From: Malacoraja senta
Taxonomy: Eukaryota
Length of the DNA: 64,000 nucleotides
Reading direction: 5' to 3'
Assembly: GCA_038087875.1 (NCBI GenBank)
Contig: CM075990.1
Span: 13,146,001 to 13,210,000 of the forward strand
Positions 9,800 through 61,075 of this stretch are shown here, piece by piece. The notes under the pieces were generated by a model that was not told where the DNA came from, searched no databases, and saw only the letters and a program-made list of their open reading frames with translations. The first letter of the stretch is position 1, and each line of letters opens with the position of its first letter. The position numbers and the translations under genes were made by a program.

Positions 9800-11185
9800 C
9801 TGTAAAGGAGGGACACAATGTTATCATTAAATATCACAATGAAATCCTCTTAATGCTTGGCAGTGGCTTTATTTATTCAGATGTCGGACAAAGCATATCA
9901 TGGTTAACTCCCTTCCAGATAATTTAATTCCGATTGAAAATATCTTCCAACATGTTTCAATTTTTAAGGAACACTTTCAAAAGCAAAAAATCTGCAACAT
10001 ATTCCAAGTCAGCGCGTTTGCCAGGATGTAATATATGTCCGAATGTAGAATGCTAGAAGATCTCTCAGTCATTGCTCATGTCATGTTTGTTGATACATTG
10101 CCACTTGCTGCACTTTAACTGTTTCTGCTATGAATTTCAAAACTAAATAATCCAAAAGTTAAGCAAACTGAAGCCCCAAGCTTTACTTTTTTTGCAACTC
10201 AGCATCTGCAGATCCCTGTTTATCCCAAGCTTTACTATTGCTTAAGGGAGTGATGACAAACAGCAGTCCTGTCTCAGAAGAATGGTGTGTGGTATGATGC
10301 CGGACAGCAGAAGCTTCCAAGCTGGGAAGGGAACAAATCAGGGAATGCAAGTAAGGACAATCAATGTTCTGGTGAAAATACAGAGTAAAGAACAGGACGA
10401 GTAGTAGAAGCAATAGAGCAAAAATGTTTTCAGAAGTTGACAATGTTGAAGTAAAGCTTGAATACAGCTCCACGACCAGAGATCATGTTTTGGTAAATGT
10501 GTTTACAACTGGCAAATTACACTTATACAAATGCAATCCTTTATCATCTAAAGAAAGAAACAGTTATCAGTTTACTGACAATCCCATTGTGCCTGAGTGC
10601 TGCTATTACCCCATTCAGGAAGCTAATGCTTAAGCCCAAACTAAATACACAATAGAAGATAGATACAAAAAGCTGGAGTAACTCGGCATGTCTGGCAGCA
10701 TCTCTGAAGAAAAGGAATAGTTCCTGTAAAACTGATGTTTGTGTCAACGGTGCATCAATAAGAAGCCTCAATATCAGCACTGAAATCTGGACAAAAATCA
10801 AACATTTGTTACATAATAACTATAATAACGAGACTAACATATGGTTGATATATAACATTGACAGAAAAATCAACTTGTCCAATTACGTTTACATGTCCAT
10901 TAAAAAAAAGTTAAAATCAAATAATTGCACTGTTAAAGATAGTGGTAAATAGTTGCAAAATATGGCAGTGCAACATGACATGGAGGGAAAACATACTGAC
11001 TGTTCAGTTAATATCCGACTTCATATAGGCAGAATTTAAATCAAATAGAAATTGACCCGTTATACAAATTAAATAAATGGTGTTTGTGAACAAAACCTTC
11101 ATTGATAATTATCAGCACACTTACAAGCAAAGTTTATTTAGCCCTACTTATTATTTCTTCAATAAACAATTTTATGTATAACCTT

Positions 11186-11371
11186 GTGTAAGAAGGAACT
11201 GCAGATGCTGGTTTAAACCGAATTTAGGCACAAAAAGCTGGAGTAACTCAGCGGGACAGGCAGCATCTCTGGAGAGACGGAATGGGTGACGTTTTGGGTC
11301 GAGACCCATTCCTTCCCTCCAGAGATGCTGCCTGTCCCGCTGAGTTGCTCCAGCTTTTTGTGTCTATCTTC
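11186..11371. mobile_element. Foldback Penelope-derived mini-element with 12-bp TSD
   Basis: Inverted arms meet at the gggtcgagaccc stem. TSD atgtataacctt at 11174-11185 and 11372-11383. Confidence 0.85.
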
Positions 11372-14797: not shown

Positions 14798-14974
14798 CAC
14801 GGGATCCTCATCCCCTTTGATGTCTGGATTTCACATCTTACACTTCCTTATCTCTGTGTCTCCCTCTCCACGGACTCTCAGTCTGAAGAAGACTCTTGAC
14901 CTGAAACGTTACCCATTCCTTCTATCCAGAGATGCTGCCTGTCCTGCTGAGTTACTCCAGCATTTTGTGACTAT
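14798..14974 (+). mobile_element. Penelope-derived 3' fragment with 12-bp TSD
   Basis: CTGAAGA...GAAACGTT core from 14883. TSD ccaccaaggaca at 14786-14797 and 14975-14986. Confidence 0.8.
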
Positions 14975-20548: not shown

Positions 20549-20722
20549 TGGAAGATAGACACAAAATGCTGGAGCAACTCAGCGGGACAGGCAGCATCTC
20601 TGGAGAGAAGGAATTCATGTCGACACCCTTCTTCAAGTCTGACGCAAAACATTCCTTCTCTCCAGAGATGCTACCTGTCTCGGTAGTATCTTCGGTATAA
20701 ACTAGCATCTGCAGTTCCTTCC
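20549..20722. mobile_element. Foldback Penelope-derived mini-element with 12-bp TSD
   Basis: TSD aatacatttaca at 20537-20548 and 20723-20734. Inverted gcagcatctctggagagaaggaat arms. Confidence 0.8.
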
Positions 20723-23700
20723 AATACATTTACACAATCATATGCAATCACAGATTTAACCATGTCTCCGAATTTCTAATTCTCTGATCCCTATAATGGT
20801 GGAAAACTGTACAAGGACAGAGTGCGTTGACTAGATATTTATGGGCCAGGTTGACCAGAAGGCTCTGGAGCCCGTCACTGAATACATTTAGGAAGGAGAT
20901 GCATAGCCTTCACTTTACAGAAGGTACCAAGGGGTCTGGGGAAGAGGAGGTAAACTTTACTGACAGAGGATTTCTCACAAGAAAAATGACTAATGGACTA
21001 CTCCTGCTTCTATTGTTCAATGTTCTGTTCTTCTATAGCACCTCTGCAGGAATGTCCAGTCACACCTCTGACAATTTTCAGTTCCACCCTTTTCCTCATT
21101 GAGCCAGCTACCTACCATTCAGTCCACAGGACCTTTCCTGTACGTACTTCTGATCCTCACTATAATTTCTGGCCCCAAGCACCTCCACAAAAAAATTCAG
21201 AGGACACACATGACTGATGCAGAAAGTGTCAGAATACCCATACCAAGTCTTCTACCCGATGTATAAAAGAGAACCATCCACTCTGGTTCCTCTTCTTCTC
21301 CTCTGTTCTCCCTTTAATGTTGGGCTTCACCAGACAACTCGTTGTAAGGCAGCAAATGCAGCGGCAGGTCAGAGATGTTAAGTGGAAATATCCCATGATT
21401 AAGTGAGGAATGGCACATTCACGGGGAAGAACAAATCAATGGTGTGGATAGATTGTCCAACTATAATGTTTTGCATCATTTATTTCACTGTACAGACTGA
21501 GCATTCAGCTTTGCTGTTGGATGCCAGCTGATAAAACACAGAAAATTATGCCAAATGTCATCTTGCATAAAAGCTGCAAGAAGTGCTGATAGTAACTGTG
21601 AACCATTATCAGAGACTAACTATTCTGACAAAAGTCAACATTCAAAACATAACTTTAAAAAAAAACTTCTCAGGATGGCGAGGTGTTACTTCTCATCAGT
21701 AACACCATTTTGTTTTCTTCCTTTATTTATCAGAATCCAGGCATCGCTGGCATGTCCAGCATTTATCGCCCATCACTAATCACACTTGACAATGGTTCTG
21801 ATGAAGTCCAGCGATGAAGATGTTCTCAAATTGCTATTGGACAGGCAGTGCTAGGATTTAGACTCAGTGATGAAGATGCAACAGCGATATATTTTCAGGC
21901 CAGGAAGATGTGTCACTTGGCAGGAATCATTCAGAGGGCATTGTGCCCATGCACCTGAAATACCTGCCCTTCCTTGTGCAATAGTTGCAAGTTTGGGAAG
22001 TGCTATCAATGTAATCTAGGTGAGTAATTACAGTGCATTCTGTAGAGGTTATGGTAAACACCTTGTTTTGGACATTCAAGGTTATAGTAATTCGCCCTTA
22101 TGGAATTCACAAATTACTACCCCAAAATCCAAGATAAATAAAATTTGTTTTAAGGAACTTATTGGAATGAGGGGTTGTGGGGAGAATTAAATAAATGGAC
22201 AGAAAATGTAAAATAAACTAAAAATGTAGTTATTTTAAACCATCACTTTTTGATAAACGCACAGATCAAGTGACTTTCTTAGAACCACAACATTCATTTT
22301 GTTGTCCAGCCATTTATTTCTTCCCAAAAGCATTCCATATTATATATTCTCAAAATGTCTGAAACAAGACCAGCAATTTTAAATGTTTAAATTATTTGTC
22401 ACGACTTATATCATTAAACAATCTTACTTATATTTGAGGAAAAAGCAACCACAGATACTGGAATAATGAGTGACAAACAAACTGCTGGAGTAACTCAGCA
22501 GCTCAGGCAGCATCTGGGGAATAAAATGGACAGGTGATGTTTTATTCCAGACACCTTCTTCAGTCTGAGTGAAAGATCCAACCCAAAACTATGTTGGTTC
22601 AACTCACTCCACAGATGCTGCCTGACCCACTGAGTTCTTCCAGCAGCTCATGTTTTACTTACTTATGTTTGATCTGTGTTTAAAAGTGTACTTTTCCCAT
22701 TCAAACAGGAAGACAGGAAGGTGATAAGCATCTGCAGTCACACGTGTCTCTAAACACTGCTGCTGGCCACATTGGAAGATTGTCCTGTTAGTTTCCAAAG
22801 ATAATTGCTCGAGTGGGGATGCCCCCAACTGGCTCCGAACCAGCAGCTGCAGTACTCATCATTAGTGTTGATAGAAAAACATGGGGTTTGTGATTGCAAC
22901 CTTCATGTGGTCCACCCTGTTTCGACGAATGCAATCAACCTGGCGTGCACAAACAGAAGATCAAACAGAACAAGTTGTCTTACAACTTTAGGCTGTGCAC
23001 GCCATATGCAAGAAGAAGAAGAGAAAAACATCCAGTAGGAACGCAATTCCACTACATATTGGGATGCCGTGAGAAGTAGGATTTTGCATCACGGACTGAT
23101 TTCTCGGTACGTAAAACCTCCATATCGTGGGGGTTGCCTGTGCACTGTGTCATGGAGATGAAGAGAAACACCATTTTGGAAAGAAGGCCGCTGATGATGC
23201 AGCGGAAAATGGCTTGCCTTAGATATTGCCCTGTGGAACCATTGCAATGATATCCTGAGGTTGGAATAAATTTCCTCCAGCAACCACGATCATCTTCCTT
23301 CGTGCAAGATACGACTAGATCACTAAAGTATTTACTCTGTGCCCATTCAATTCAGTTTTACCAGAACTCCTTAATATCATGGCAAACACTTTCATGGCAA
23401 CTGTGCAAATTAGCTCTTTGATTCATGTTTGGAACAAGGTTGTGATGTGGTCTCAAACCACATGAGCTATTGAAACTTAACTGTGGATTATTGAGCCAGT
23501 TATCGGTGAGCAAGGAATGCATGGCAGCAGTGCCAATGATACTTTCATCACTTTGCTGATGGGTGAGAATATAGCTAATGGATTGCAATTAAGCAAATTG
23601 GATTTATTCTGCTTCTTGTGGACAGGATAAACCTGGGCAATTTTCCACAAGGCTCAGTGGATGTCAGTGTTATAATTTGGAGTGGCTAACCACTAGAATG

Positions 23701-25466: not shown

Positions 25467-26159
25467 TAACACAACTGTCATTGAAGAGCGACAGACTGAC
25501 TGCTTGTAAGTTCTGCAGAAGTTGGTTGCTGTATTACCCTTTTATGCCTATTTTAAAAGGTAATCAATTGTCTATTAAACACTCAATAAACTTGTGGTTC
25601 TCATTTACTACCTACAATAACAGTCTATTGCTATGACACTTCAACCATTCAGCTAACATAAGCAGAAGATAGCTAACATACTTGTCCCTTTTGCAAGCTG
25701 TTAAATATTTTGCAAAAGATCTTTTAATTAATTTACTTAAACATGAGGATATACTACGGGTTTTAAAGATATTGAAGAAACCCAGTAAATCAACTAACAA
25801 TTCATAGCTTTTGCTCAAAAAACACAAAGTGTGGAGTAACTCAGTGGATCAGACAGCATCTATGGAGAACATAGACAGGCAATGTTTTCGGTTGCGACCC
25901 TTCTTCAAACATTTGCTCTGTTGTTTTCTACCCTAGTTCCATTACCATAATACTCCATAGTTCAAATAAAACATTTTAAGCACAGGTACTTTGTTAGTAC
26001 ACTTTCAATTGTAAATATTTTGAAACAGCGGCGCCCATATAGAATTCAAACGGCAATTACATTTAAAACAAGAATTTTTGTTGCAAAATATACATTATTA
26101 CATTGCAGCAACTCAATCTCATACCATGAAGACTCTTCAAGGTTTATAGACTACCCAGG

Positions 26160-29926: not shown

Positions 29927-31132
29927 TAGATGATAGAGATAGATAGATAGAAACTTTATTTGCCACACGACCAGGGTTGGTGGTAATTGGGTTCGGTACA
30001 TGATGGTACACTGCTTTAGCACATTAACACTAATAACAACACAGATCATAATAATAAAGCACATCACAAATCACAAATCTCACCAACAATACATAGTGCA
30101 AAAGAACAGACAAAAACAATAGACAAGACACTGTATACATCAAAGTCAAAAAGTTATTGGAGGGAATTAAGTGTTCTTATTGCTGAGGGGAAGAAACTGT
30201 TTTTAAAACGGGTGGATTTTGTAGCAAGTGACCTAAGGCGCCTCCCTGAAGGGAGAGACTGGAAAAGGTGGTTTGCTGGATGGGAGGGGTCCGAGATGAT
30301 CTTTGTTGCCCGTTTTGAGGTACTTTGGAGGTAAATTGAGGGGAGGGGAGAGTTGATGATCCTAGAGGCCTTGGAGACAATGCGCTGTATTCTGTGTAGT
30401 GAATGACTGTCAGTGTTTCCGTACCAGACTGTGATTGAGGAAGTGATGATGCTTTCAATGATGGATTGATAGAAGCATACCAGGAGGTGTTTGTGGACTC
30501 TGAACTTCTTGAGCTGTCTGAGGAAGTATAGGCGTTGTTGTCCTTTCTTAATGATGTGGTCAGCATTGATGTGCCATTTTAGATTATTGCAGATATAGGT
30601 GCCCAGAAACTTAAATAAGTTCGTGGAGGTTATGGGATGGGAGTTGACATGGACCGGGGGTTTGAGGTTTTGTTTGCGTCTGAAATCTATGATGGTTTCT
30701 AAGGTTTTTGAGGTGTTAAGCTGGAGGTTGTTTTCTGCGCACCATTTGACTGCGCTGTCCACTGTTTGATGGTATTGTGATTCATTGTTGTCTGAGATGA
30801 GGCCAATTATTGTCGTGTCGTCTGCATATTTGAAAATTTTAACTGAGCTGCATTGGGATGCGAGGTTGTTGGTGTAAAGTGAGAAGAGTTGAGGTGACAG
30901 AACGCACCCTTGAGGGGCTCCTGTATTGAGAGTCAGAGGGCTGGAGAGTTTTTCACCCACCTTGACTCTTTGTTGTCTGTTTGTCAGAAAATGTAAAATC
31001 CAATGGCACATGGCTAGGTGAATGCCCATGTCCAACAGTTTATTGTAGAGTTTAATTGGGTGTATAGTATTAAAGGCCGAGCTAAAATCAATAAACAGGA
31101 TGCGTGCATAAGTGTTCGGTGATTCCAAATGA
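29927..31132 (-). mobile_element. Second Rex1/Babar-like LINE family, 5'-truncated, uninterrupted 324-codon RT ORF, (TATC)n tail
   Basis: ORF 30154-31128: [41 protein letters not shown] plus (ctat)n at the 3' end. Confidence 0.92.
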
Positions 31133-39251: not shown

Positions 39252-40225
39252 TCTGAACCTTCTGGATTTGTAGTCGGCAGGGCAGTACTCTGCATATCGC
39301 CAACTTGGATGTGTTGTACATACTAACGTGCTGTTAGTGCCCCCTTAAAACTGTCTAGTGAAGGTGATTTGACTATATTGTTGTCTAGTTTATTCCATTC
39401 CCCTAAGGTTCTTACAAAGAATGAGTTCTTATAAATAGCTGTCCTTGTGAATGGGGTTTCTATTTGTATATCATTACTCTTTCTTGTTCTCCTTTCTGTT
39501 GAGTATGTTATGTATCTATCTGCAGTTATGCCCACCATCCCCTTTTGAATCTTGTACAACATGGCTAGTCTGTTCCTTGCCCTTCTTGTTTCCAGCATTT
39601 CCCACTCCAGGTCGGACAGCATCTGGGTGACACTGCTACCTCTATTGTAGTTCCCGATGCAAAAGCATGCTGCTTTCCTGTGTACCCCTTCTAGTTTGTT
39701 GATATGACCAGTTTTGTATGGGTCCCAGGCGCATGAAGCGTATCCCAGTAAAGGTCTAACCAATGTTGTATATGCTGTGGTTTTCCCTTCCTTTGGGCAG
39801 AACCAGAGGTTTCGTCTAAGGAATCCTAGTGTCCGGTTGGCTTTAGTGACCGTGTTGTCCACGTGTTCCCCCCCACGAAAGCTTGCTATCAAGATGAACT
39901 CCAAGGTATGGTTGTGAACTTGTACGATGAAGTATTTGTCCATAGAAGACGTAGTCTCGAGCAGGTGGTTTCTTCTTGTTTGAAATTACCATAATTGAGC
40001 ATTTGGTTGGGTTGAAGCTCATCTTCCATGTGTTTTGCCATAATTCCAAAGACTTAAGGTCTTCTTGTAAAGAGTTCATTTCCTCTACATCAGTGACAGG
40101 TGTGTATACAAGACAATCATCTGCAGAGAGTCTTGTTTTACAATTTATGTGTTCAGGTAGATTATTAATATACGTCAGGAACAACAGTGGCCCGAGGACC
40201 GTGCCTTGCGGTACTCCTAGCAGTA
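39252..40225 (-). mobile_element. CR1/L2-group LINE fragment distinct from the resident CR1, nested in an older CR1 piece
   Basis: ORFs 39843-40301 and 39323-39943: GVPQGTVLGP, ADD, KANRTLGFLRRN, WDPY, YKNSFF. One frameshift. Confidence 0.85.
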
Positions 40226-40649
40226 CTTGTTCTTCTAAAGAAATGTTTCCTTCATAGGAAGCCCATATAGTTTCCTTCATAGGAAGCCCATATAGAAACA
40301 TCTTGCTTCAGATTAATTTTCTTGATTAGTTCTAAAAACAAATTCAAATTTGAGGGACATGATCTCCAAAGTACAAAACCATCGTGACTATCTCTTATCA
40401 GCCTCTGTCTATTCAAATGCATATCTTCTCCCTCAGAATCTTCTCCAGTAACTTAGCTACCATAGATGTAAGCTCACTGGTCTATAATTTCCAGGCTTTT
40501 CCTTGCAACCCTTCTTAAATAGAGGCATGACATTCGCCAGTTTAGTTTAGTTTAGGGATCAAAGGAATAAAAAGCCAATGTTCCCTACTAAGAGCAGTAA
40601 ACCTGGCTAATGTTCCCAAGGCTATCCTAAAACTACCTGCATTGTTGAT

Positions 40650-41838: not shown

Positions 41839-41989
41839 TGCGTAAGAAAGAACTGCAAATGCTGTTTAAATCGAAGGTAGACACAAAATGTCGGAGTAAC
41901 TCAGCGGGACAGGCAACATCTCTGGAGAGCAGGATTCCTTCTCTCCAGAGATGCTGCTTGTCCCGCTGAGTTACTCCAGCATTTTGGGT
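41839..41989. mobile_element. Foldback Penelope-derived mini-element, 14-bp TSD, inserted in a CR1 fragment
   Basis: TSD cagccttctggtaa at 41825-41838 and 41990-42003. Interrupts minus-strand CR1 ERVQKRFTRRL|PGL. Confidence 0.85.
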
Positions 41990-43121: not shown

Positions 43122-43239
43122 AGCATCTATGGAGCGAAGGAAATAGGCAACGTTTCGGGCCGAAACGTTGCCTATTTCCTTCGCTCCATAGATGCTGCCG
43201 CACCCGCTGAGTTTCTCCAGCAATTTTGTCTACCTTCGA
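43122..43239. mobile_element. Near-perfect palindromic Penelope-derived mini-element
   Basis: agcatctatggagcgaaggaaataggcaacgtttcgg-g-ccgaaacgttgcctatttccttcgctccatagatgct. Confidence 0.85.
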
Positions 43240-43261
43240 TATTTGGCATGTACAAGTTCAT

Positions 43262-43605: not shown

Positions 43606-43955
43606 CTATGTACCTCACGTTTCTATGTAAAGAGGAATGGCTGGAGGTGGATGGGGTAAGATAGTTCTTGTTATGCGCTTTGAAGATAAAGTGTTGCCGA
43701 GCTCCTCGGACCCCGGACACTCTCACAACACATCTAGCAAGAGGCCACAGTGTGTAGGAAGGAACTGCAGATGCTGGTTTACACCGAAGATAGACACAGA
43801 ATGCTGGAGAAACTCAACTCTCAACTCGACCCGAAACGTCACCCATTCCTTCCCTCCAGAGACGCTGCCTGACCCGCTGAGTTACTCCAGCATTTTGTGT
43901 CTGGCTGGTAGGAGGGATGACCCGCGCAAACGTTTAACGCAAACCATTCCCTTAC

Positions 43956-44030
43956 CGACTGTTCATCGTCCCTCGGCGACCATGGCGACTGCTCCCCACT
44001 CGCCCCCGGCCGTCCGCTCCTCACGTCACG
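43956..44030 (-). other. MICU1: Putative MICU1 exon 1 (5' UTR); transcription start position approximate
   Basis: CpG-rich, apparently non-repeat patch upstream of the first coding exon. It ends in the donor CAGTCG|gtaagg at 43956/43955 and points away from MCU. Confidence 0.7.
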
Positions 44031-44100
44031 CTACGGCAGGAAACGCCGACGCACCCTGCGTCATCACGTAAACGTCAAATACGCCCCGCCCATACGTGGC
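44021..44100 (-). promoter_or_regulatory. Putative MICU1 core promoter: CRE/ATF-like sites, ETS-like site and GC box
   Basis: TCACGTCA at 44021-44028, CAGGAA at 44037, TGCGTCA at 44057-44063, AACGTCA at 44071-44077, GCCCCGCCC at 44083-44091 and TACGTG at 44093, all within a CpG-dense 80 bp. Confidence 0.6.
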
Positions 44101-44103
44101 TCC

Positions 44104-44608
44104 AGAGAGACAGACAGAGAGAGACAGAGAGAGACAGACAGAGAGAGAGAGAGAGACAGACACAGAGAGAGAGAGAGAGAGACAGAGAGAGATACAGACA
44201 CAGAGAGAGAGAGAGAGAGACAGAGAGAGATACAGACAGACAGAGAGAGAGAGAGACAGACAGAGATAGACAGACACAGAGAGAGACAGAGACAGAGAGA
44301 CAGACAGAGAGAGAGACAGACACAGAGAGAGAGAGAGAGAGAGACAGAGAGAGATACAGACAGACAGAGAGAGGGAGAGAGAGACAGAGAGAGATACAGA
44401 CAGACAGAGAGAGAGAGAGAGAGAGACAGAGATAGACAGAGACAGAGAGACAGACAGAGAGATACAGAGACAGACAGAGAGAGAGAGAGAGAGACAGACA
44501 GAGAGAGACCAACAGAGAGAGACCGAGAGAGAGACAGAGAGATACAGACAGACAGAGAGAGAGAGAGAGAGAGAGACAGAGGGAGAGAGAGGGAAAGAGA
44601 GACAGACA

Positions 44609-44652
<44 letters not shown>

Positions 44653-44899
44653 GAGACAGAGAGGCAGACAGAGAGAGACCGACAGACAGAGAGAGAGACA
44701 GACAGAGAGATACAGAGACAGACAGAGAGAGAGAGAGAGAGAGAGACACAGAGGGAGAGAGAGTGAAAGAGAGACAGACAGAGAGAAACAGAGGGAGACA
44801 GACAGAGAGAGAGACAGAGAGACAGACAGACAGAGAGAGAGAGCGAGACAGACAGAGAGAGAGAGAGAGAGAGACAGAGACAGAGAGAGCGAGACAGAC

Positions 44900-44954
<55 letters not shown>

Positions 44955-44972
44955 GAGTGAGAGAGAGAGAGA
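44104..44972. repeat. Compound (GA)n/(GACA)n microsatellite, about 870 bp
   Basis: Directly visible in the sequence. Confidence 0.98.
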
Positions 44973-45234
44973 GGTGGCCACAGGTGTGGCTCTCATGTCC
45001 CACCCAGCCTTGAAATGTAAGCATCATTCACTACATTTTTCATCATTCAAGCACTATTTCAAATTTTACATTTTTTCTGTGTGAACTAGTTTTTACTAAT
45101 GGTGACCTTTGTGAGAGTTTATCTCATAGAATGGTAGAGATTTTGTAAGTTCATCAGTTCTAGGAGCAGAATTAGTCCATTCGGCCCTTCTCCTGATAAT
45201 CCCTGACGCCCGTACTAATCAAGTATCTATCTAT

Positions 45235-46578
45235 GTGTTAAAGAAGGAACTGCAAATGCTGGAAAATCGAAGGTACACAAAAATGCTGGAGAAACTCAGC
45301 GGGTGCAGCAGCATCTATGGAGCGAAGGAAATAGGTAACGTTTCGGGCCGAAACCCTTCTTCAGACTGATAGGGGGTGGGGAGAAGAAAGGAAAAAAGGA
45401 AAAGGAGGAGGAGGAGCCCGAGGGCTGGGGGAGGGGAGGAGACAACCAGATGGCTGATGAAGGGGAGGGGACAGCCAGGGCTAGCAGAATTGGGAGAATT
45501 CAACGTTCAGGCCACCAGGATGTAGACTGCCCAAGCGGAATATGAGGTGCATTTCCTCCAATTTACGGTGTTGCTCGCTGTGGCCATGGAGGAGACCCAG
45601 GACAGAGAGGTCAGATACGGAATGGGAGGGGGAGTTGAAGTGCTGAGCCACCGGGAGTTCAGGTTGGTTATTGTGGACCGACCGGAGGTGTTCGGCGAAA
45701 CGATCGCCAAGCCTCCGCTTGGTCTCACCGATGTAGATCAGCTGGCATCTAGAGCAGCGAATGCAATAGATGAGGTTGGAGGAGATGCAGGTGAACCTCT
45801 GTCGCACCTGGAACGACTGCTTGGGTCCTGGAATGGAGTGGAGGGGGGAAGTGAAGGGACAAGTGTTGCATCTCTTGCGGTTGCAAGGGAAAGTACCAGG
45901 GGAGGGGGTGGTATGGGAGGGAAGGGAAGAATTGACAAGGGAGTTACGGAGGGAGCGGTCTTTGCGGAAGGCAGACATAGGGGGAGATGGGAAGATGTGG
46001 CGAGTGGTGGGGTCACGTTGGAGGTGGCGAAACTGACGGAGGATCACTTGTTGTATGTGACGGCTGGTGGGGTGAAAGGTGAGGACTAGGGGGACTCTGC
46101 CTTTGTTGTGAGTGGGGGGATGGGGAGAGAGAGCAGTGTTGCGGGGTATGGCAGAGACCCTGGTGCGAGCCTCATCTATGGTGGAGGAGGGGAACCCCCG
46201 TTCCCTGAAGAATGAGGACATTTCAGATGCCCTGGTGTGGAACGCCTCATCCTGGGAGCAGATGCGGCGTAGACGGAGGAATTGGGAGTGGGGGATGGAG
46301 TCCTTACAGGAAGCAGGGTGGGAAGAAGTGTAGTCCAGATAGCCATGGGAGTCGGTAGGTTTGTAGTGGATGTCGGTAAGGAGTCTATCACCTGCGATGG
46401 AGATAGTGAGGTCAAGGAATGGTAGGGAAGTGTCGGAAATGGTCCAGGTGTATTTGAGTGCTGGATGGAAGTTGGTGGTGAAGCGGATGAAGTCAGTCAG
46501 TTGTGTGTGGGTGCAGGATGTGGCACCAAAACAATCATCGATGTAGCGGAGGTAGAGGTCGGGGATGGGGCCCTGGTA
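45235..46578 (-). mobile_element. Penelope-like retroelement, 5'-truncated: RT C-terminus, Zn-finger linker, GIY-YIG endonuclease and 3' end with hammerhead-like motif
   Basis: Reading frame open from 46577 to 45481: LRYIDDCF, PFLD, YKPT, CNRKRCNTC, NLIYCIRC..IYIGET..R..EH, GLN. Inserted in a CR1 remnant (about 45150-45234 and 46580-46860). Confidence 0.93.
45337..45364 (-). ncRNA. Minimal hammerhead-ribozyme-like motif in the Penelope 3' end (representative copy)
   Basis: CTGAAGA-A-GGGT(TTCG)GCCC-GAAACGTT. Helix I is only about 2 bp and helix III is reduced to the ACGT palindrome. Confidence 0.6.
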
Positions 46579-47273: not shown

Positions 47274-48600
47274 TTAAGCCAAAAAGGGTTTTTGGGAAGA
47301 AAGAGCTACCTTAAATTTAGTTGCATCTGGTTGGGTAACTATGGTAGGGTGAAGATTATTCCATGCTTTAATTGTGCGGGGGAAGAATGAATTGCTGTAC
47401 ACATCTGTCTTGGTAGCTGGAATCTCAAATTGGATCGAATGTCCTCGTCTGCTCCTAATTGGTTTGGGTTTGGTGTAGGTCTTGTAATCTATGTTGAGCT
47501 GACCATTTAACATTTTGTAAAAACAGGTCAAACGGTGAGCTTCACGTCTGTCTTGGAGAGGGTTCCACCCCAGAGAATTCAGAAGTTTGGTAACACTCGC
47601 TTCTCTCTCATAGGTGTTAGTAACAAATCGAGCTGCCTGTCTTTGGACACATTCGATGGAAGAAATGTTTTTATTTGTGTATGGGTCCCATGCTGCAACT
47701 GCGTAGTCCAAATGAGGTCGAACGAGGGTGAAGTATAGCTTCTCCTTGACAGAAGTTGAACAATGATGAAAGTTGCGCCTCAGAAAATTTAGGACACCTG
47801 TTGCTTTCACCGTTGCATGATGAGTCTGACCATTCCAACGCAGATCATTCTGCAATTTGATGCCAAGATACTTGGTTTGTTTGGATTCTTCAAGGATGGT
47901 ACCAAGTATATTGTACGATGTTTTGCCTGGATTCCTCTTTCTGGTGACACGCATGGTTTCACATTTGGAAGGGTTGAACTGCATGCCCCATTGGTGTGAC
48001 CACTCAACCATTGTATCGAGGTCCTTTTGGAGAGCATCTTCATCATCAGCTGACTTAATTGGACGGTACAGCAAACAATCATCAGCGAATAGTCTGGTCG
48101 TGCTTGTGACTTTTTCATGGATGTCGTTTATGTAAAGCAAAAACAGATGTGGGCCAAGTACTGTGCCCTGAGGTGTACCACTCAACACTGGATGCCAATT
48201 GGAGCTCTTTCCGTTCACACACACACGCTGAAGACGTTTTGTCAGGAAACTGGAAATCTATCGTTTCGTGTTGGAACGAATACCATAGAAGTCAAGCTTC
48301 CGAAGCAGTCTCTGGTGTGGGATGACATCAAATGCTTTAGAAAAGTCCAGCACTACTAAATCCGCGATGACATTACCATCAAGATGTTTGGCCAGGTCAT
48401 TTGTCGTCAGGATAAGCTGAGACTCACATGATCTATGCCTCCTAAATGCATGTTGGTTGTCAGCAAGAATATTATGTTTGCTCACGTGTCGCATCAGATT
48501 ACTATCAATTACATGCTCCAGTAATTTGCAGCAAGTACTTGTTAATGAAACAGGAAGAAAATTCGCTGGGTTGGTGATTGAACCTTTCTTAAAGAGAGGA
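47274..48600 (-). mobile_element. CR1/L2-group LINE RT fragment, near intact
   Basis: ORFs 48258-48494 and 47274-48224 are in one frame, separated by a TAG at 48258-48260 where Trp is expected. Motifs QHAFR, LDFSKAFD, PQGTVLGP, FADD, WDPY, NSFFPRT. Confidence 0.9.
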
Positions 48601-49049
48601 TCATGTATTGTCTTTCTGCTGAATGGTTAGCACACAACAAAACTTTTTCACTGTACCTTGGTACACATGGCAATTAAACTAAGCTCAAACTCGATTGTAG
48701 TGGTTAAGTGGTTTCTGCCGACATCACCACCACTATTCTTGGAGAAGGGCCTAGGTTCTCAGCACTCTTCCAATCCTGCCACTAACTTTAAATTCAAACC
48801 ATATTTTAAAAGTTATTTCAAGAAATAGTCAATGGGTCGAATAAAATTATTTCATGTCCTTTGAGGAGTTGATAGTAAATCCTCAGGAAGATAGGCACAA
48901 AATGCTGGAGTGACTCAGCGGGTCAGGCAGCATCTCTGGAGAAAAGTAGGTGATGTTTCGGGTGGGAACCCTTCGTCAGACTCTAGACTGGTCATATGTG
49001 CTTCTTCGACAAACCCTTGGTATTTAGGATCAGCTCTCAAATGAGGCCA

Positions 49050-51188: not shown

Positions 51189-51322
51189 ATTGTGTCTGAA
51201 GAAGGGTCTCGACCCGAAACGTCGCCTATTTCCTTCGCTCCATAGATGCTGCCTCACCCGCTGAATTTCTCCACTATTTTTGTTTACCTTCGATTTTCCA
51301 GCATCCGCAGTTTCTTCTTAAA
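51189..51322 (+). mobile_element. Penelope 3'-end mini-element with intact hammerhead-like core and 12-bp TSD
   Basis: CTGAAGAAGGGTCTCGACCCGAAACGTC at 51196-51223. TSD cattggctctga at 51177-51188 and 51323-51334. Confidence 0.85.
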
Positions 51323-51672: not shown

Positions 51673-54476
51673 TTGAGTACATCATCTTATTGGGCACATA
51701 AACTCAATGATGAATGATTATAGGATGTTTAGAGTACTGTCATTCGGAAATCACCTGTGGTCCCAGGTATCCTTGCAAGTGGCCATAAAAAAACATGTGC
51801 AGTAAAGCATCTGTATTTTCATGTGTCCTGGCCAATATTTCATTTTCCATGAACACTATGGAAAGCACAATCTTTTTATTACGTTGCTGATTGTGGGACC
51901 TCTCTGTTCAAAAAATATTTGACCACATTTGACAGCACTTCAAACGTGCTTTGTTGATTCTGCATGAAGGGCCTGAGATTCTGAGATCATGAAAGCCCTA
52001 CAAATCATGTATTTCCTTATTATTGAACAGAAACTATTCCAAACTGAACCAAATTGACATTTTCAAAATCGTAAGTCCTTTTTGGATAAGTTAAAAGCTC
52101 TTCATTTGCATTTGCAGTCTTGTCCTTGTCCAAATATTGAAGATATGTGTGGATTTGTTGTGATGTTCCAAAATGTTCTGTGGCCGATGAAGGATGGTCA
52201 CTTTTTCATGTGGAAAACATTCAACCTAATCTGTCCACAGCAAAATGCCATAAACAACACTGTAATATTGACCTGTCAGTCTGGTTTAGTGATATTGATT
52301 AAGGTATAAATATTTGTCAGAACAACGGGGATAACTTGCTCAATGGCAAAATAACAGCATATACCCTTTCAGATTTATCTGCGAGAGGTCTTGGATTAAT
52401 CTGTACTGTTGCATGGGGCCTCTGTTCTTGATCTATAGGATGAATGTGCAGCATAACAAATGTTCTTTGAATGCCTGAGTTGCACTGGGCTGGGTCAGAT
52501 TGGGAATGGAGAAACCTGTGAGTATTTTAGCTCACTTCATATTTGAATTGATTGCAAAACTCAAAGTGCTGGAGAAAATCAGTGAGTATGGCATCATCTG
52601 CAAAGGGAATGGATAGGCAATGTTTCGGATTGCAACCTTTCATCAGACTGATTGCAGCAGAGGGGAGAAAGCTGGGGAAAAAACAGGTGCGGTGGGCCAA
52701 AGCCTGGAAAGTACTAGGTGGTTACAGATGAGGGGGGTTTGGACTGCCCTCGCCTTTCTTTTCCAGCTTTCTCCTCCCTACAGCCAGTCTGAAGAAGGAA
52801 CCCAATCCAAAATGTTGCCTATCCACTTCCTCCACAGATGCTGCCTGTCCCGCTGGGTTACTCCAGCATTTTGTGTTGAGCTCAAGATTCCAGCATCAGC
52901 AGTTCCTTGTGCCTCCATTGAATGGACTCTGGTCAGATTGGGTTCAGATCAGATTCTAATTTTATCCAATGGTAAATCCAGTGCCGCTAACCTTTCTTCA
53001 AAACTAAAGTTTGACAAATCATTATGAAAAATTAGGGGGGAAAAAAAAAATCATATTAAAAAAATCATATTGTCATTTCCAAATTTTTCAGCCTTATCTA
53101 TTTTACAATTAGATGATCCATCCATGGCTTAAATCCTAAAATCAGTTTCTGTAGAATCCCACCTTCAGGTGATAAAAGATAACTTTTCATACATTTAAGT
53201 GGAAAATGTAATCCATTGGTGGTATTGTTGCCTGTTTGTGTTGGTTCTGGATTGAAGATTGAAATAAAATTCAATGTGATACACCAGTGCGAAGGCAGTG
53301 TGGAATTGATGGACATTCAGTAAGGATTGAAATACAGATATGACTTTCTAATTAGTACCAGTGTATGCCTATTATATCAACCCATTATTCTTTAAAATGT
53401 TGTTGTACCAAATTCCACATTGCCAACGCCTTATATTGTGATGCAAATAAATGTCTCTGAGTAATGAATAACTGCTTCTTGCTGGTGGCAAACGTATTAG
53501 ATCGTGTTTGTGCATTGCTTACCTAGAGGATGGGTGTGTATTAAATTGTGTTTGTGCACTGCCTTCGTAGAGGATAGGCGTGTTATTCATTTCCCCCACA
53601 CCTACATCTGATCACAGTTCAGTTGGAAATGCCACACAAGGAAATACATCTAAAAATAATTCATATCCAATCAACTGGTTTTTCATTGTAGTTTTAGATG
53701 TAAATAGCCGTTTGACACTTTCATACAGGAAATTTCATTCTAACAATCAGATGTAAAATAAGCAGCTGATCCCTGGAAGTAATACAGAGAGAATGGCTGT
53801 ACAGCTGACCTCTATTGACAGAGAACTTAAATGTGCGCTTGGGTTAGAGAAGCATTGTTTTTCAGACTTGATAGGAAACATTGTCCGATAGGAACAGACA
53901 GCAAAAAATCACTTTCATTATTCAGTAACCAGTGTTCACAGATTTAAGGTAAACTGCCACAAATTCTGGAGGGAGGCAACACATTATAGACAAGATCCGA
54001 TAAGTGCTAGAACAGGTTCTACAGCGACTTTCACAGGAACCAAGAGGAACACAGAGAAATGAGGGGAATTGGTTATCTATTTCGATAACTAGCACAGGGT
54101 TAGATAATCGCCGAGAAACATAAAAATACTTTTCTCTCTTCGCAAATGTTGCATGACCTGCTGAATATTCCTGCATTTATTCCAGATTCATAAGATCTAA
54201 GAGAATCTGATTTTGCATTATAGGAATAAGATGTTTCATGCATGTTTTGCTAAACAATAATTTAAACAATAAGCTCAATTCCATCCTCCCACATGATTCC
54301 GATACCCCTTACATCCTTAGTATCGAAAAATCTGTGCTCAATAACTCTATTTAAGAGACACCTAAGAGCTGGAATATAAAAATAGAAAATAAATTAAGCT
54401 TAAATATTAACTCAAATTAAATCACAGCTGCACACCAAGAGGACATACTGCCAAAAGAACTTTCAGAACTTTCAGA

Positions 54477-55217
54477 TCGCCACCTCCAACGGGATCCCAC
54501 CACTGGCCACATCTTCCCATCTCCTCCCCTTTTGGCTTTCCGCAGAGACCGCTCCCTCCGTAACTCCTTGGTCAATTCGTCCTTTCCCACCCAAACCACC
54601 CACCTCTCCTGGCACTTTCCCTTGCAACCGCAGGAAATGCTACACTTGTCGCTTTACCTCCCCCCTCGACTCCATCCAAGGACCCAAGCAGTCTTTCCAG
54701 GTGCGGCAGAGGTGCACCTGCACCTCCTCCAACCTCATCTATTGAATCCGCTGCTCTAGGTGTCAGCTGCTCTACATCGGTGAGACCAAGCATAGGCTTG
54801 GCGATCGCTTTGCCCAACACCTCCGCTCGGTTCGCATTAACCTACCTGATCTCCCGGTGGCTCAGCACTTCAACTCCCCCTCCCATTCCGAATCCGACCT
54901 TTCTGTCCTGGGCCTCCTCCATGGCCAGAATGAGGTCCATCGTAAGTTGGAGGAGCAGCACCTCATATTTCACTTGGGTAGTTTACACCCCAGCGGTATG
55001 AACATTGACTTCTCCAATTTTAGGTAGTCCCTGCTTTCTCCCTCTTTCCCCTCTCCTTCCCAGCTCTCCCACAGCCCACTGTCTCCGCCTTTTCCTTTCT
55101 TCTTCCCACCCCCATATCAGTCTGAAGAAGGGTCTCAACCCGAAACGTCGCCTATTTCCTTTGCTCCATAGATGCTGCCTCACCCGCTGAGTTTCTCCAG
55201 CATTTTTGTCTACCTTC
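54477..55217 (+). mobile_element. Penelope-like fragment (GIY-YIG region plus 3' end), frameshifted
   Basis: Highly similar to the reverse complement of about 45270-46030. Hammerhead-like core at 55122-55149. Confidence 0.9.
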
Positions 55218-57059: not shown

Positions 57060-57392
57060 CACAGCCCCGATTGGTCACAGTGCCGGAGACTACGCCCTAG
57101 CTGCTGCACCAAGCCAACCAAGGCTTCTCCTGCCTTGACGGAAAGGTTGAGAACACGCCGGTTCCAGTCCCTCCTTCACTTCACACACGGAGCTTGCGAA
57201 TGGTGGAGCGTTTGAGCGACAACTGGGAAGCCCACCTTCGTGCATGAAGGGTTGAAATGTGATTGGTGTGGCAGCATGAGTGATGGTGGCAGTAGGGGAG
57301 GGGGATCCGCCCTTTCCCAATGCTTCCCAGCCCTGGCGTGGCCCCGACTGCCGCTGCGGAGCCACTTCGGGGGAATTGGCTACACTTCAGCG
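57060..57392 (+). promoter_or_regulatory. Putative MCU promoter / 5' UTR (GC-rich, several CCAAT boxes)
   Basis: GC/CpG-rich region ahead of the MCU ATG. ATTGG at 57070, 57262 and 57375, CCAAT at 57317. Confidence 0.6.
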
Positions 57393-57533
57393 ATGGCGAT
57401 TGCGGCAAGGGCTCTACTTTCGGCCGCTCTGGGGAGCACTCGGGCGGCAGCAGCAGCAGCAGCGAGTGGAGGAGGAGGAGGAGGCTGCTTCAGCGGGCTG
57501 GCTCTCAGCAGACAGCGGCAACCACAGCGGACG
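57393..57533 (+). CDS. MCU: MCU exon 1 coding part (mitochondrial targeting peptide), 141 nt; gene continues right of the window
   Basis: gcgATGG start. Translates MAIAARALLSAALGSTRAAAAAAASGGGGGGCFSGLALSRQRQPQRT|gtgagt, versus human MCU exon 1 ending GCFPGLGVSRHRQQQHHRT. Divergent from MICU1, as in other vertebrates. Confidence 0.88.
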
Positions 57534-59233
57534 GTGAGTCAGGACAGGCACAAATTGCTACAGGATCTTTGGGCACAGGGACAGGGACAGGTCCAGGTCC
57601 CCCCTTCCAGGAAGATTGCAGCGGCGAGTCCTCCTTCCCATCTGGTGGGAGTGGCAGGGAGGGAGTGCGGCTTTGGACGGGCTCTGTTCCTCCCTTGGGA
57701 AACACATTCAGCGTGTGTTGGTGTGTGAAAGAGGGAGGGGGGGTGGGAGAGGGAAAAAGGGGGTTAATGAGAGCCCACAAGGCAGGCTGCTCACCTCCCA
57801 CAGCAGTTATCCTCACTAACATAAAAGCAGGACGTGGCAGAAATGTCCATCTGTAGGGAAGTGGAGTTAAGGTCTCAGGTCGGTGACCTTTCAGCGTTGG
57901 GGTGGCTGGAGTCCAAGAGGCAACCTGGCCAATCTGCCCAAGAGCTCAGATTAAAAGTTGATGCTGTTTTTTTCCCGGAAGAATGGCAGGTATAAGCAAT
58001 GCTGCCGACACGGGGACGAGCGAGGCAACATTACCTCCCTGGTTTGGAAGGAAGCTTCAGATAGGAAGCGAGAGGAAATAAGACAGCAAAATTGTTACTT
58101 ACCGCAGGGCCGCGTAACAAGTGACCTGCAAAGACCCACACACCACGTTCTAGCGCTCACACTGGTGATCTGCTTTGGATTATGACCAGGAATTCATTAT
58201 GGACCCCGCCCCTCTCCCTCCACCTCTGATTGTAAAGTAGAATCGAAAACTAGTGCTTGCCTGTAGTGGCTGTGAGCCGGGTGTGGAGCAATGATCTGAA
58301 TCATCAGAGTGTGTGTACATATCGTCCCAATCTTCCGGTATCAACATGATTTTTTTGCATGCCGCAGTAGTCCGGTCTAACGATATGGAAACATATGGTA
58401 CAGGGTCTGAGTTTGACTCTCGCCCCTCATCCCACATTAACCCCGATGGTGAATCTATGTACGAGTGAATTCCCGTGATAGTAGGTCTATCTCAATGTGC
58501 CTGGCAGCAGTCAGACACTTCGTACAAGTGGGGATGCAGCTTCATTGCTTTACGTCTTGCTGGAGGATGGTGCCAGACACTGAGAGGCAGAGAAACTAGA
58601 GGACAAACCTTGCCAAACTATTCTCGGGACTGGGGTAAACCTCCACAAATTAGTTGTTTCCCTTGCTTGGTGAGTTTGTTCTATCAGTGGACAGCTGAGA
58701 AAGATGTGGGGGTTGAATCTGGATTAGCTGTCAAAGAGGGAGTCAGTTCCATTGAGAAATCTTTGCGGCTCATATGAGCTATTAGGTGGTTGGCCCACTT
58801 GTGACTGTGTTCCTCAGCGCATTGGCAGTGGCAAGAGAAGGGGGTATGAAGTGAAATCATCCATATTTTTCTCTGGTATTGTCTGCAGTATCTGAATGCT
58901 GTGTTTCAATACTACACCCATGAAGTTGGGGGTCGATTTCTGATGAACAGGTGGAGATGTTTACATCCAAACTGGACCTAAACAAAATTACAAATGAGTT
59001 ATGGTTCAGTGTGTCATGCTATTCAACGTCCACATATTTATTCCACCCTGAAGTAAGTTTGCTCTCACTTGAAATATTGAAGTTGACTGAGTTCCGAATT
59101 GCCCATTTACTTTTGCACCCATAGTTCTCTAAAATGAAGGTTTACATCCACTAAATCTTTTCTATTCTTTCAAAGCCAACAATTAGTAAATAGCATTTCG
59201 GGGCAACGTTTCACGTCCAACACTTGAAAAGTA

Positions 59234-59635
59234 CATCTCCATCGCAGGAGATAGACTCCTGACCAACATCCAATATAAACCCACTGACTCCCATGGCTAT
59301 CTGGACTGCACTTCTTCCCACCCTGCTTCCTGTAAGGACTCCATCCCCTACTCCCAATTCCTCCATCTACGCCGCATCTGCACCCAGGATGAGGTGTTCC
59401 AAACCAGGGCATCGGAGATGTCCTCATTCTTCAGGGAACGGGGGTTCCCCTCTTCTACCGTAGATGAGGCTCTCACCAGGGTCTCTTCTATACCCCGTGA
59501 CTCTGCTCTCACTCCCCACCCCCCCCCCCACCCTCACATCAGTCTGAAGAAGGGTTTCGGCCCGAAACGTTGCCTATTTCCTTCGCTCCATAGATGCTGC
59601 CTCATCTGCTGAGTTTCTCCAGCATTTTTGTCTAA
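59234..59635 (+). mobile_element. Internally deleted Penelope-like copy (RT thumb region fused to the 3' end)
   Basis: Matches the reverse complement of about 46120-46405, then jumps through a C-rich tract to the 3' end. Core at 59544-59571. Confidence 0.88.
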
Positions 59636-59781: not shown

Positions 59782-60007
59782 GTGTTAAAGAAGGAACTGC
59801 AGATGCTGGAAAATCGAAGGTACACAAAAATGCTGGAGAAACTCAGCGGGTGCAGCAGCATCTATGGAGCGAAGGAAATAGGCAACGTTTCAGGCCGAAA
59901 CCCTTCTTCAGACTCCCTTAATGTGCAAGCTATTAACATTAGTTAAGGGAGCTCACATCAGTCTGAAGAAGGGTTTCGGCCCGAAACGTTGCCTATTTCC
60001 TTCGCTC
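59782..60007. mobile_element. Foldback Penelope mini-element with 13-bp TSD and a captured spacer
   Basis: TSD catttgacagccc at 59769-59781 and 60008-60020. Inverted arms around the spacer at about 59914-59952. Confidence 0.88.
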
Positions 60008-61075
60008 CATTTGACAGCCCCACAGGTAGCAAAGAATAGAAACCTCCCTTGAACAGAGCTATTTGGCCATGTGATTCACACACAATCTGAGCGGGAGAAA
60101 AGAATGCAGGAATCACTCTGGGGGTTTCACATATATATTCTGATTACCTAGATGCATGTTGTGTTTCAAGGCTATGATGTGTTGTGGAGGATAAGACACT
60201 TGACTGACAGAGGTTTGACTAATGTACTTTAATATTAATGAAGAATTTAAAAATAAATACATAGGACTGATTGTCATGAGACAAAGATACAAACATGTGG
60301 TTTCAAATATTTATAAAGATAATGAACAAGATTGTGTACTATCTGGAGAGGACAAGGCAAGCGGTTGTTTAAGCTTTTGGAGGCACTTGAGGTTAGAATG
60401 TAATATATGTTAAATGATCTGTTCACTCTGAATGTGAGCGTGATAAATGTAGTCTCAACAGTGTACTCAAACAATGTCAGTCGTCCAAATGGTCACACTT
60501 GGTCCATTGTGAAAGAAAGTAAGGCTTTCATTATACAGCCCATTTGCACCCTTGGGGTGATTCCAAGTGCTTTACAGCCAGTGAAGTATAGAGAGTGTTG
60601 TAATGCGGAAGCTAGTTTGTGAACAGAAAGCTCCTTCAAGCACCATTCCAGATGTTTAATTTATGATGCTTGATTTGAAAAGGCATCATAGCCAGCACAC
60701 TTTGGATTTTTCTTTTCCTCTGCTGAAAGTTTATTACACCTGAGAAGGAAGTTCACGTCTTATTTTGCTATCTGCCTCAGTACTGCACTGGGTCACCAAT
60801 CATTATTTTAGTGTTCAAGTCTCTAGGAACACTGGCTCAGAAGTGAGTGCTGACAACTCTGTTATAACACACAAAATATGATAATTGTCTACTCTTTGGC
60901 GCAGCTTTCCTGAGCCACAGATGTCCAATAGTTTCTACAGTTTAAATTCATTCTAGACATTAATGTGTATATCAGTGCTTCCTGAAATCTTCTCTGTGAT
61001 GAGTGTTCTTACGAAATTCAGACTCTCTTGGCAGAATGCTTTGCCCCATGTTGCAATTTATGAAAGGCAGTTTTA

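What the first reader, a model, noticed from the sequence alone, without database searches (positions are those of the whole stretch)
45337..45364. Minimal hammerhead-ribozyme-like core repeated through the window in Penelope 3' ends
Seen: the 3' end of the RT/GIY-YIG element reads CTGAAGA-A-GGGT(TTCG)GCCC-GAAA-CG-TT. The motif recurs at 51196-51223, 55122-55149, 59544-59571 and 59963-59990, with decayed copies at 14883 and elsewhere. Stem II stays paired while its sequence varies (GGGT-TTCG-GCCC, GGGT-CTCG-ACCC, GGGT-CTTG-GCCC, GGGT-CTCC-ACCC). Established: CUGANGA...GAAA...UH is the hammerhead core, and Penelope-like elements are known to carry minimal hammerheads whose helix III is a short palindrome (here ACGT) that works as a dimer. 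Inference: this is such a variant, with an extra A before stem II and an unusually weak helix I of about 2 bp. It may cleave only as a dimer, or it may be a structural recognition signal.
Basis: partly seen in the sequence, partly recalled or inferred. Interest (0 to 1): 0.72.

Follow-up and report, generated by a model that had tools for sequence, protein, structure and literature searches.

The report
Minimal hammerhead in Penelope retroelement ends
The motif is a complete minimal hammerhead-ribozyme sequence at the 3' end of a Penelope-like jumping gene, likely from a shark or ray; this kind was described in 2014, and it is predicted to cut itself only weakly, as a pair and with protein help.

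Summary
Real, but of a known kind. All five named copies exist (45337-45364 is on the minus strand). Six of 37 repeat arms pass a full minimal-hammerhead descriptor, against 0.02 in shuffles. The motif lies 116 nt after the stop codon of a 5'-truncated RT/GIY-YIG ORF with a Neptune-type linker. Distant relatives carry the same motif 91-241 nt after their ORF in 21 of 49 loci. A model built only from them finds all five copies at E about 1e-7. The extra A, the ACGU palindrome and a 2-bp helix I are all in Cervera & de la Pena 2014, so none is new. Within the window stem II varies almost only on one side, and G12 decays by CpG loss (10 of 26 copies). Cleavage is untested; the active dimer folds 13-18 kcal/mol worse than alternatives. 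The insertions show standard Penelope anatomy: inverted pairs, an optional 35-nt tail and target duplications. One leftover: short copies tend to start 1-4 nt before the core, not at the cut site. This scan has found the same motif in other shark genomes.

The parts
45337..45364 (-). Minimal type-I hammerhead: C3-A9 (45364-45358), extra A (45357), 4-bp stem II with 4-nt loop (45356-45345), G12-A14 (45344-45342), palindromic ACGU helix III half (45341-45338), H17=U (45337). Predicted cut between 45337 and 45336.
45365..45366 (-). Helix I 5' arm (G2.2, U2.1), inside a YCAGT motif kept in all three subfamilies
45335..45336 (-). Helix I 3' arm (1.1 = A here, G in about half of the copies; 1.2 = C). 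The third pair is a mismatch in 11 of 11 window copies aligned.
45272..45334 (-). Rest of the pseudo-LTR down to the short 3' end (position 93-94 counted from C3)
45236..45271 (-). Optional ~35-nt PLE tail; long 3' end at position 129
45371..45480 (-). Pyrimidine-rich 3' UTR between the stop codon and the hammerhead; poorly conserved between copies
45481..46578 (-). 5'-truncated Penelope-like ORF (365 aa): RT C-terminus (YIDD), thumb, C-x4-C-x2-C linker, GIY-YIG nuclease
51196..51223 (+). Intact copy (GUC site) heading a short insertion with long tail and ~12-nt target duplication
55122..55149 (+). Intact copy (GUC site) after a truncated ORF (about 54470-55027); short 3' end
59544..59571 (+). 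Intact copy (GUU site) joined by an internal deletion to an RT-thumb fragment (about 59235-59530)
59782..60010 (.). Head-to-head inverted pair with a 13-nt target duplication: copy 59884-59911 (minus, long tail) and copy 59963-59990 (plus, ends at position 48)
14883..14910 (+). Subfamily B copy: core intact, stem II broken
48952..48979 (-). Copy with intact core but palindrome lost (16.2 G to A)
11185..11368 (.). Inverted pair; one arm starts in stem II, the other at position 29; 15-nt target duplication with one mismatch
22440..22650 (.). Old inverted pair turning at the centre of the TCAG-T-CTGA palindrome that overlaps the core; 15-nt target duplication with one mismatch
43122..43243 (.). 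Young inverted pair turning inside stem II

Best explanation
The motif is the minimal type-I hammerhead of the pseudo-LTR of a Neptune-type Penelope-like retroelement; it is predicted to cut after GUC or GUU only when two copies pair through their ACGU palindromes, and likely only slowly and with help from the element's own protein. Shown: the sequence has every core nucleotide, the right spacing, and the right place and strand relative to the ORF, and distant relatives keep the same architecture with different stem sequences. Inferred: in a tandem transcript, or in two RNAs held together, each ACGU pairs with the other's to make the 4-bp helix III that one molecule cannot form; stem II folds locally; the 2-bp helix I positions the scissile bond. 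Inferred by analogy with the anole element: protein binding is needed, and cleavage may be dispensable for insertion. Most of the 37 arms in the window are 5'-truncated dead insertions copied from the 3' end; they decay neutrally and are likely inert.
For: Descriptor hits 6 against 0.02 by chance. Motif 116 nt after the stop codon and sense to the ORF. In related metagenome loci, 21 of 49 with at least 250 nt after the ORF end carry the motif 91-241 nt downstream, all sense, none antisense, and none in 52,894 nt of ORF control; these are 15 distinct motifs. All 21 have the extra A and a helix I of 3 bp or more, although the descriptor did not ask for helix I. All 3 helix I pairs show two-sided changes among 14 relatives. 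A covariance model from those 14 alone ranks the five named copies among its top six hits, E 4e-8 to 5e-7 (rough E-values). Positions that differ between window copies stay within hammerhead rules: H17 is C in 14 and U in 15 of 29; 1.1 is A in 15 and G in 15 of 30, opposite U; 11.4 is A in 16 and G in 8 of 25, opposite U. The motif fits the published consensus. The anole PLE hammerhead cleaves only with PLE protein (PMC11167929).
Against: No cleavage was measured. The active double hammerhead scores -6.3 to -7.1 kcal/mol against -19.9 to -25.0 for the best dimer fold of the 40-mers, a gap of 13-18 (relatives: 0-16). A UCAG/CUGA intermolecular duplex that buries C3-A6 scores about -20. The monomer probability of stem II ranges from 0.00 to 0.99 by copy and context, and folding z-scores are unremarkable. 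Helix I is shorter than in all 21 relatives, and 2 bp arise by chance about 14% of the time. The C/U and A/G variation at 17 and 1.1 can come from decay of one CpG, so it is weak evidence. Within the family the downstream pLTR is as conserved as the hammerhead (61/65 against 32/37). No solo copy starts at the predicted cut (0 of 14 at position 28-30). 28 of 49 related loci gave no descriptor hit; 6 of these show a core with one change. Rfam gave no hammerhead match up to E=10.
Confidence: 0.72

Rival explanations
1. The motif descends from a hammerhead but no longer cleaves in this lineage. It is kept as part of a ~130-nt cis element (protein binding, RNA pairing or promoter).
For: Shortest helix I of all 22 elements compared. 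Strong competing folds. Downstream pLTR as conserved as the core. No 5' ends at the cut site. Anole core mutants still insert in vitro and no RNA ends were found at the cut. Eight of nine Xenopus dimers did not cleave.
Against: All 11 core positions are the majority base in the window copies, with 7 of 224 non-CpG cells changed against 102 of 1448 in non-diagnostic tail columns (p=0.03, biased by alignment ends). Drosophila PLE hammerheads with a 2-bp helix I cleave weakly once helix III is extended.
Confidence: 0.2
2. The pyrimidine tract plus CAG just before the core is a splice acceptor, as in D. virilis Penelope, so that splicing supplies a new, longer helix I and switches the ribozyme on.
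For: The 35 nt before the CAG are 95% pyrimidine with no G. CAG is kept in all subfamilies although only GU pairs. The D. virilis intron ends at helix I. RNA reads have many loose ends at 45366-45367, where exon-terminal G or AG would place them.
Against: The whole sense strand is pyrimidine-rich (ORF 63%, UTR 86%). No RNA joint is among the 15 joints shown, though 277 were not shown. Genomic copies 25908 and 51196 have their target duplication within 0-6 nt of this boundary, leaving no room for an upstream exon. Relatives have no AG at this place.
Confidence: 0.12
3. The match is chance, multiplied by repeat copying.
For: Window copies are not independent, and no two-sided change is seen in stem II among young copies.
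Against: Same architecture at the same place in 21 of 49 distant loci with unrelated flanks; model from relatives alone recovers it.
Confidence: 0.02

Closest known systems
Metazoan PLE minimal hammerhead (min-HHR), Cervera & de la Pena 2014, PMC4209133
   Same: Fits the Fig. S3 consensus position by position: CUGANGA, extra H, G-C-closed helix II, GAAA, palindromic 15.2-16.2 without loop, UH. Lies in the 3' pLTR; most copies are solitary truncations.
   Different: No cartilaginous fish is in that paper's 56-motif alignment or Table S1. Helix I is 2 bp, at the low end (3-6 bp in the vertebrates listed; 2 bp in Drosophila, Culex, Oikopleura).
Acropora digitifera Neptune hammerhead (same paper, Table S1 and Fig. 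S3)
   Same: 4-bp stem II starting GGG with a 4-nt loop, CG palindrome. The same motif appears in loci L020, L040 and L058, whose ORFs are 37-43% identical to the window protein.
   Different: 3-bp helix I; different downstream sequence.
Poseidon_Ac (PAc) hammerhead of the green anole, Frangieh et al. 2024, PMC11167929
   Same: Hammerhead in the pLTR; two 3' ends defining an optional tail (here positions 93-94 and 129, 35 nt apart).
   Different: Penelope/Poseidon clade, not Neptune. The PAc ORF starts in stem II; here no start or N-terminal match was found in the pLTR. PAc cleavage was measured; here it was not.
Drosophila virilis Penelope hammerhead
   Same: 2-bp helix I and extra nucleotide; a possible acceptor site at the 5' edge of helix I.
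   Different: It has a 6-bp bulged helix II, a longer palindrome and a proven intron.
Non-LTR retrozymes (Li et al., bioRxiv 10.64898/2026.07.22.740005)
   Same: Non-autonomous pLTR-derived units with type-I hammerheads; reported from one chondrichthyan genome.
   Different: Retrozymes are head-to-tail tandem arrays. The copies here are solitary or head-to-head (9 pairs), with no tandem array in the window.

Membership tests
PLE minimal hammerhead (min-HHR) | Core C3 U4 G5 A6 N7 G8 A9 ... G12 A13 A14, A15.1-U16.1, H17 | tested here: met
   Intact in 9 of 16 copies spanning the core, and the majority base at every position
PLE minimal hammerhead (min-HHR) | Unpaired nucleotide between 9 and 10.1 | tested here: met
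   A in 19, T in 2 of 21 copies; A in 21 of 21 relatives
PLE minimal hammerhead (min-HHR) | Helix II closed by G10.1-C11.1 | tested here: met
   4 bp; G in 19 of 21 and C in 21 of 25 copies. Two-sided changes come from distant families and one old copy
PLE minimal hammerhead (min-HHR) | Palindromic 15.2-16.2 in place of helix III | tested here: met
   C in 25 and G in 20 of 28 copies, losses mostly CpG transitions; CG/TA/CGCG variants in relatives (the descriptor required a palindrome)
PLE minimal hammerhead (min-HHR) | Short helix I | tested here: met
   2 bp (U-A or U.G, then G-C) in 11 of 11 window copies aligned, third pair broken in 11 of 11; within the published range but not above chance on its own
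PLE minimal hammerhead (min-HHR) | Located in the pLTR, sense to the ORF | tested here: met
   3 of 3 ORF-linked copies. A 5' pLTR of a full-length element is not in the window.
PLE minimal hammerhead (min-HHR) | Self-cleavage as dimer or with protein | not testable with these tools
   Folding energies are unfavourable; polyA read ends are not suited to show cut ends
Penelope-like element, EN+ | RT followed by C-terminal GIY-YIG nuclease in one ORF | tested here: met
   GIY-YIG E=5e-4, just below Pfam's cut-off; 176 longer relatives, most with RT domains; YIDD and YIGET motifs
Penelope-like element, EN+ | Optional 30-40-nt tail, inverted pLTRs, target duplications | tested here: met
   Two 3' ends 35 nt apart; 9 inverted pairs, 8 with exactly one long arm; duplications of 12 nt or more in 6 of 9 pairs against 2 of 200 random placements
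Neptune clade | CX2-5CxxC zinc-finger-like linker between RT and EN | tested here: met
   C-x4-C-x2-C at residues 232-240; definition from PMC8557442 passages
Neptune clade | RT phylogeny separating Neptune from Nematis | not tested
   No tree with named reference elements was built
Rfam Hammerhead_1 / canonical type I | Covariance-model match; 6-bp helix I with loop-loop tertiary contact | tested here: not met
   No hammerhead family among 26 matches up to E=10; helix I is 2 bp
Non-LTR retrozyme | Head-to-tail tandem units each with a hammerhead | tested here: not met
   No such array among 37 arms in the window; the rest of the genome is not held

The most novel reading that the evidence does not exclude
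The conserved YCAGT before the core is an initiator (A at -3 as +1), so the hammerhead sits at the very 5' end of the element's RNA. That would explain a helix I of only 2 bp and why short copies start at -1 to -4 (5 of 14 solo copies, p=0.006; hundreds of read ends at 45366-45367). Self-cleavage would then remove the capped first ~31 nt: an auto-decapping switch. It would fire only when the dimeric PLE protein holds two RNAs, the same two-RNA complex that would explain the fully overlapping head-to-head insertions with one long and one short tail (8 of 9 pairs).
Probability: 0.15. Interest if true: 0.55.

Novelty: new member of a known kind. Interest (0 to 1): 0.17.

Why it matters
As it stands it adds a likely cartilaginous-fish member, with a very short helix I, to a ribozyme class described in 2014. 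The role of PLE hammerheads is still open. This abundant family records its 5' ends, 3' ends and inversion points in many copies, so a genome-wide junction census could test the role cheaply. If the transcript starts three bases before the core, cleavage would decap the element's own RNA and give the ribozyme a concrete job.

Tried and rejected
No whole genome is held for this window, so a genome-wide copy census was not possible. Rfam scan: only chance hairpin matches to miRNA families on the inverted pairs, no hammerhead. Exact-pattern scans for the pLTR in metagenome and viral contigs: 0 and 0. Sequencing-run search: no RNA holder listed; this is no evidence on expression. RNA reads laid come from organisms other than the best holder, sum many copies and lie on both strands at the motif. 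The only pile-up of ends listed is at 45472, none at the cut site, but fragmented polyA libraries cannot show ribozyme ends, so this is inconclusive. RNAalifold on 9 copies predicted a different hairpin over stem II, with a covariation term of +0.25, so no support from within-family covariation. An ORF start in the pLTR: an ATG frame at position 51 is open in subfamily A but closed in B, and no frame matched the first 200 residues of 120 homologues at E<=1; not supported. 5' ends just after the cut site: 3 of 14 at positions 27-33, p=0.37; rejected. A DPE-like match at the expected distance from the putative initiator (4 of 5 positions, consensus recalled) is expected by chance about 17% of the time by hand estimate; not used. 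Lunse et al. 2017 could not be read.

Full report
Observation. The five named motifs are present. The lead copy, 45337-45364, is on the minus strand. The loose core pattern occurs 16 times against 3.43 expected. A full minimal-hammerhead descriptor finds 6 copies (45364-, 51196+, 55122+, 59544+, 59911-, 59963+) against 0.02 in 100 shuffles. BLAST with six window seeds gave 39 clusters. I dropped two (41431, a second hit inside copy 41397; 15925, a weak match), leaving 37 arms in 28 insertions: 19 solo or ORF-linked copies and 9 head-to-head pairs. By eye they fall into three subfamilies.

The element. The motif begins 116 nt after the stop codon of a 365-aa ORF fragment at 45481-46578, minus strand. 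The fragment has YIDD, a thumb, a C-x4-C-x2-C linker and a GIY-YIG domain. It has 176 longer relatives; the most identical listed (66% over 60% of the query) is a bamboo shark protein. The host is therefore likely a cartilaginous fish; this is an inference. The linker matches the CX2-5CxxC motif that PMC8557442 gives for Neptune (passages); no tree was built. Two more ORF fragments carry the motif in sense.

Anatomy. C3-A9, an extra A, a 4-bp stem II, GAA, the palindrome ACGU, then H17 (C or U). Helix I has 2 bp; its third pair is broken in 11 of 11 window copies aligned. Helix III cannot form in one molecule, since the palindrome has no loop.

Independent support. The ORF alignment fetched 80 related loci from metagenome contigs (best 80 of 474). 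Of these, 55 reached the ORF end and 49 had at least 250 nt beyond it. In 21 of the 49 a minimal hammerhead lies 91-241 nt downstream, all in sense; there was none on the other strand and none in 52,894 nt of ORF control. They are 15 distinct motifs; 6 of the 28 loci without a hit show a core with one change. All 21 have the extra A and a helix I of at least 3 bp, which the descriptor did not require. Among 14 aligned relatives (the 4-nt-palindrome type and four duplicate rows were left out) all three helix I pairs and three of four helix II pairs change on both sides (helix II pairing was selected for). Their downstream flanks are, by eye, unrelated to the window's. A covariance model from these 14 alone ranks the five named copies and copy 48979 on top, E 3e-8 to 5e-7 (E-values rough).

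What the window copies do not show. Stem II changes among young copies are one-sided (U-A/U.G); one old copy (52789) has a two-sided change. G12 sits in a CpG and is A in 10 of 26 copies; the palindrome's CpG is altered in 11 of 56 cells; tail CpG cells in 13 of 68. So inserted copies decay neutrally. Between two ORF-linked copies, identity is 251/300 at the ORF end, 70/110 in the UTR, 32/37 in the hammerhead and 61/65 downstream. The core beats the upstream UTR but not the downstream pLTR.

Can it fold? For 40-nt constructs the active double hammerhead scores -6.3 to -7.1 kcal/mol against -19.9 to -25.0 for the best dimer; relatives show gaps of 0-16. A second palindrome, UCAG-U-CUGA, overlaps the core and gives an inactive duplex of about -20. 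In the full pLTR the core can also pair with downstream pyrimidine runs. Nearest-neighbour energies ignore core tertiary contacts, but unaided cleavage looks unlikely. This matches print: S. mansoni monomers did not cleave and dimers did so weakly (PMC4209133); the anole ribozyme cut only with PLE protein and its mutants still inserted (PMC11167929); one of nine Xenopus dimers cleaved (bioRxiv 10.64898/2026.07.22.740005).

Insertion anatomy. 3' ends cluster at positions 80-104 (22 rows) and 116-129 (14 rows) of the 39 rows; two rows (41902, 43142) were over-extended by the aligner and are short arms. Reads from three RNA runs give loose ends at 45236 and 45271-45272, 35 nt apart (top rows only, 3481 not shown). 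This is the optional 30-40-nt tail of PLEs. Eight of 9 inverted pairs have exactly one long arm and none has two. Six of 9 have target duplications of 12-17 nt, against 2 of 200 random placements scoring as high, so they are single events. Junctions lie at short palindromes or microhomologies, including stem II (43122 pair) and TCAG-T-CTGA (22440 pair). Inverted pLTRs with palindromic junctions are described for rotifer Penelopes (PMC3846280 passages).

The leftover. Five of 14 solo copies with a 5' end between -10 and +35 start at -1 to -4 (p=0.006 against uniform, window chosen after seeing the data), and none at the cut site. Reads agree: 404 loose ends at 45366 in X21, and 846 at 45366 plus 1022 at 45367 in X24. 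These runs are from other organisms than the best holder and sum many copies. CAGT is kept in all subfamilies though only GU pairs. Readings: an initiator-type start (consensus recalled; Inr-like pLTR motifs are noted), a splice acceptor as in D. virilis, or an RT stop. Target duplications that abut this boundary favour an RNA end or RT stop over splicing. Relatives lack the motif. Unresolved.

Known versus new. No cartilaginous fish is in their list. A search for 'hammerhead ribozyme', 'cartilaginous fish' and 'retrotransposon' together found 0 papers; one for Penelope, skate, shark, Neptune and transposable gave 4 unrelated listings. The 2026 preprint reports retrozymes in one chondrichthyan; its supplements are closed and may name this family. 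Lunse et al. 2017 is not held and may include such sequences; I know it only from a review passage and its reference line. Three earlier notes of this scan report the same kind of motif in other shark genomes; they are unchecked AI notes and came after my reading was formed.

Papers seen. PMC4209133: main text parts 1-2 of 4, supplement parts 1-2 of 3. PMC11167929: parts 1-2 of 4 and passages. bioRxiv 10.64898/2026.07.22.740005: parts 1 and 3 of 5 and passages. PMC6765202, PMC8557442, PMC3846280, PMC2377424: passages only; search listings. Hammerhead numbering and the Inr and DPE consensus are recalled.

Verdict. A real, correctly spotted PLE minimal hammerhead; a new member of a known kind; activity untested and likely weak. 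Interest 0.17.

Noticed in passing
window 11185-11368, 11780-11990, 20545-20725, 22440-22650, 41844-41986, 43122-43243, 43750-43902, 52555-52910, 59782-60010: Nine head-to-head inverted pLTR pairs whose arms overlap in sequence; 8 have exactly one long-tailed arm and 6 have 12-17-nt target duplications. This suggests priming from both target strands at the two initiation sites, possibly on two RNAs. They form long perfect hairpins that give spurious miRNA matches in Rfam.
   Followed up: partly
window 45361-45369 (minus) and equivalent places: A second palindrome, TCAG-T-CTGA, overlaps the hammerhead core. It could pair two RNAs in an inactive form and is the turning point of the 22440 inverted pair.
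   Followed up: partly
window 45236-45247 and 45355-45367 (minus): The 3' end of the long tail is complementary to the AAGAAGG of the core, so the 130-nt unit has imperfect inverted ends.
   Followed up: no
window 59235-59544: Penelope copy with an internal deletion joining a C-run in the RT thumb to the C-run before the hammerhead (microhomology), removing the nuclease region.
   Followed up: partly
window 59915-59955: The spacer between the two arms of the 59782 pair is itself bounded by a 9-bp inverted repeat; origin unknown.
   Followed up: no
window 15864-17825 (+): 653-aa open fragment of an L1/Tx1-type RT with zf-RVT; several other LINE RT fragments at 26150-28087, 30154-31134, 39323-40307 and 47274-48626.
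   Followed up: no
window 57216-57728 (+): GC-rich stretch with an Ala/Arg/Ser-rich frame that looks like the first exon of a host gene with a mitochondrial-type leader. If so, the intact copies 59544 and 59963 would lie in sense in its intron.
   Followed up: no
window 44105-44975: About 870 nt of (GA/GACA)n simple repeat next to a GC-rich stretch at 43920-44100.
   Followed up: no
L054:2371-2410, L072:3262-3301, L045: Related elements with a 4-nt palindrome in helix III, a 3-bp stem II and a 5-9-bp helix I; their active dimer is within 0-1 kcal/mol of the best fold, so they are better candidates for an in vitro test.
   Followed up: partly
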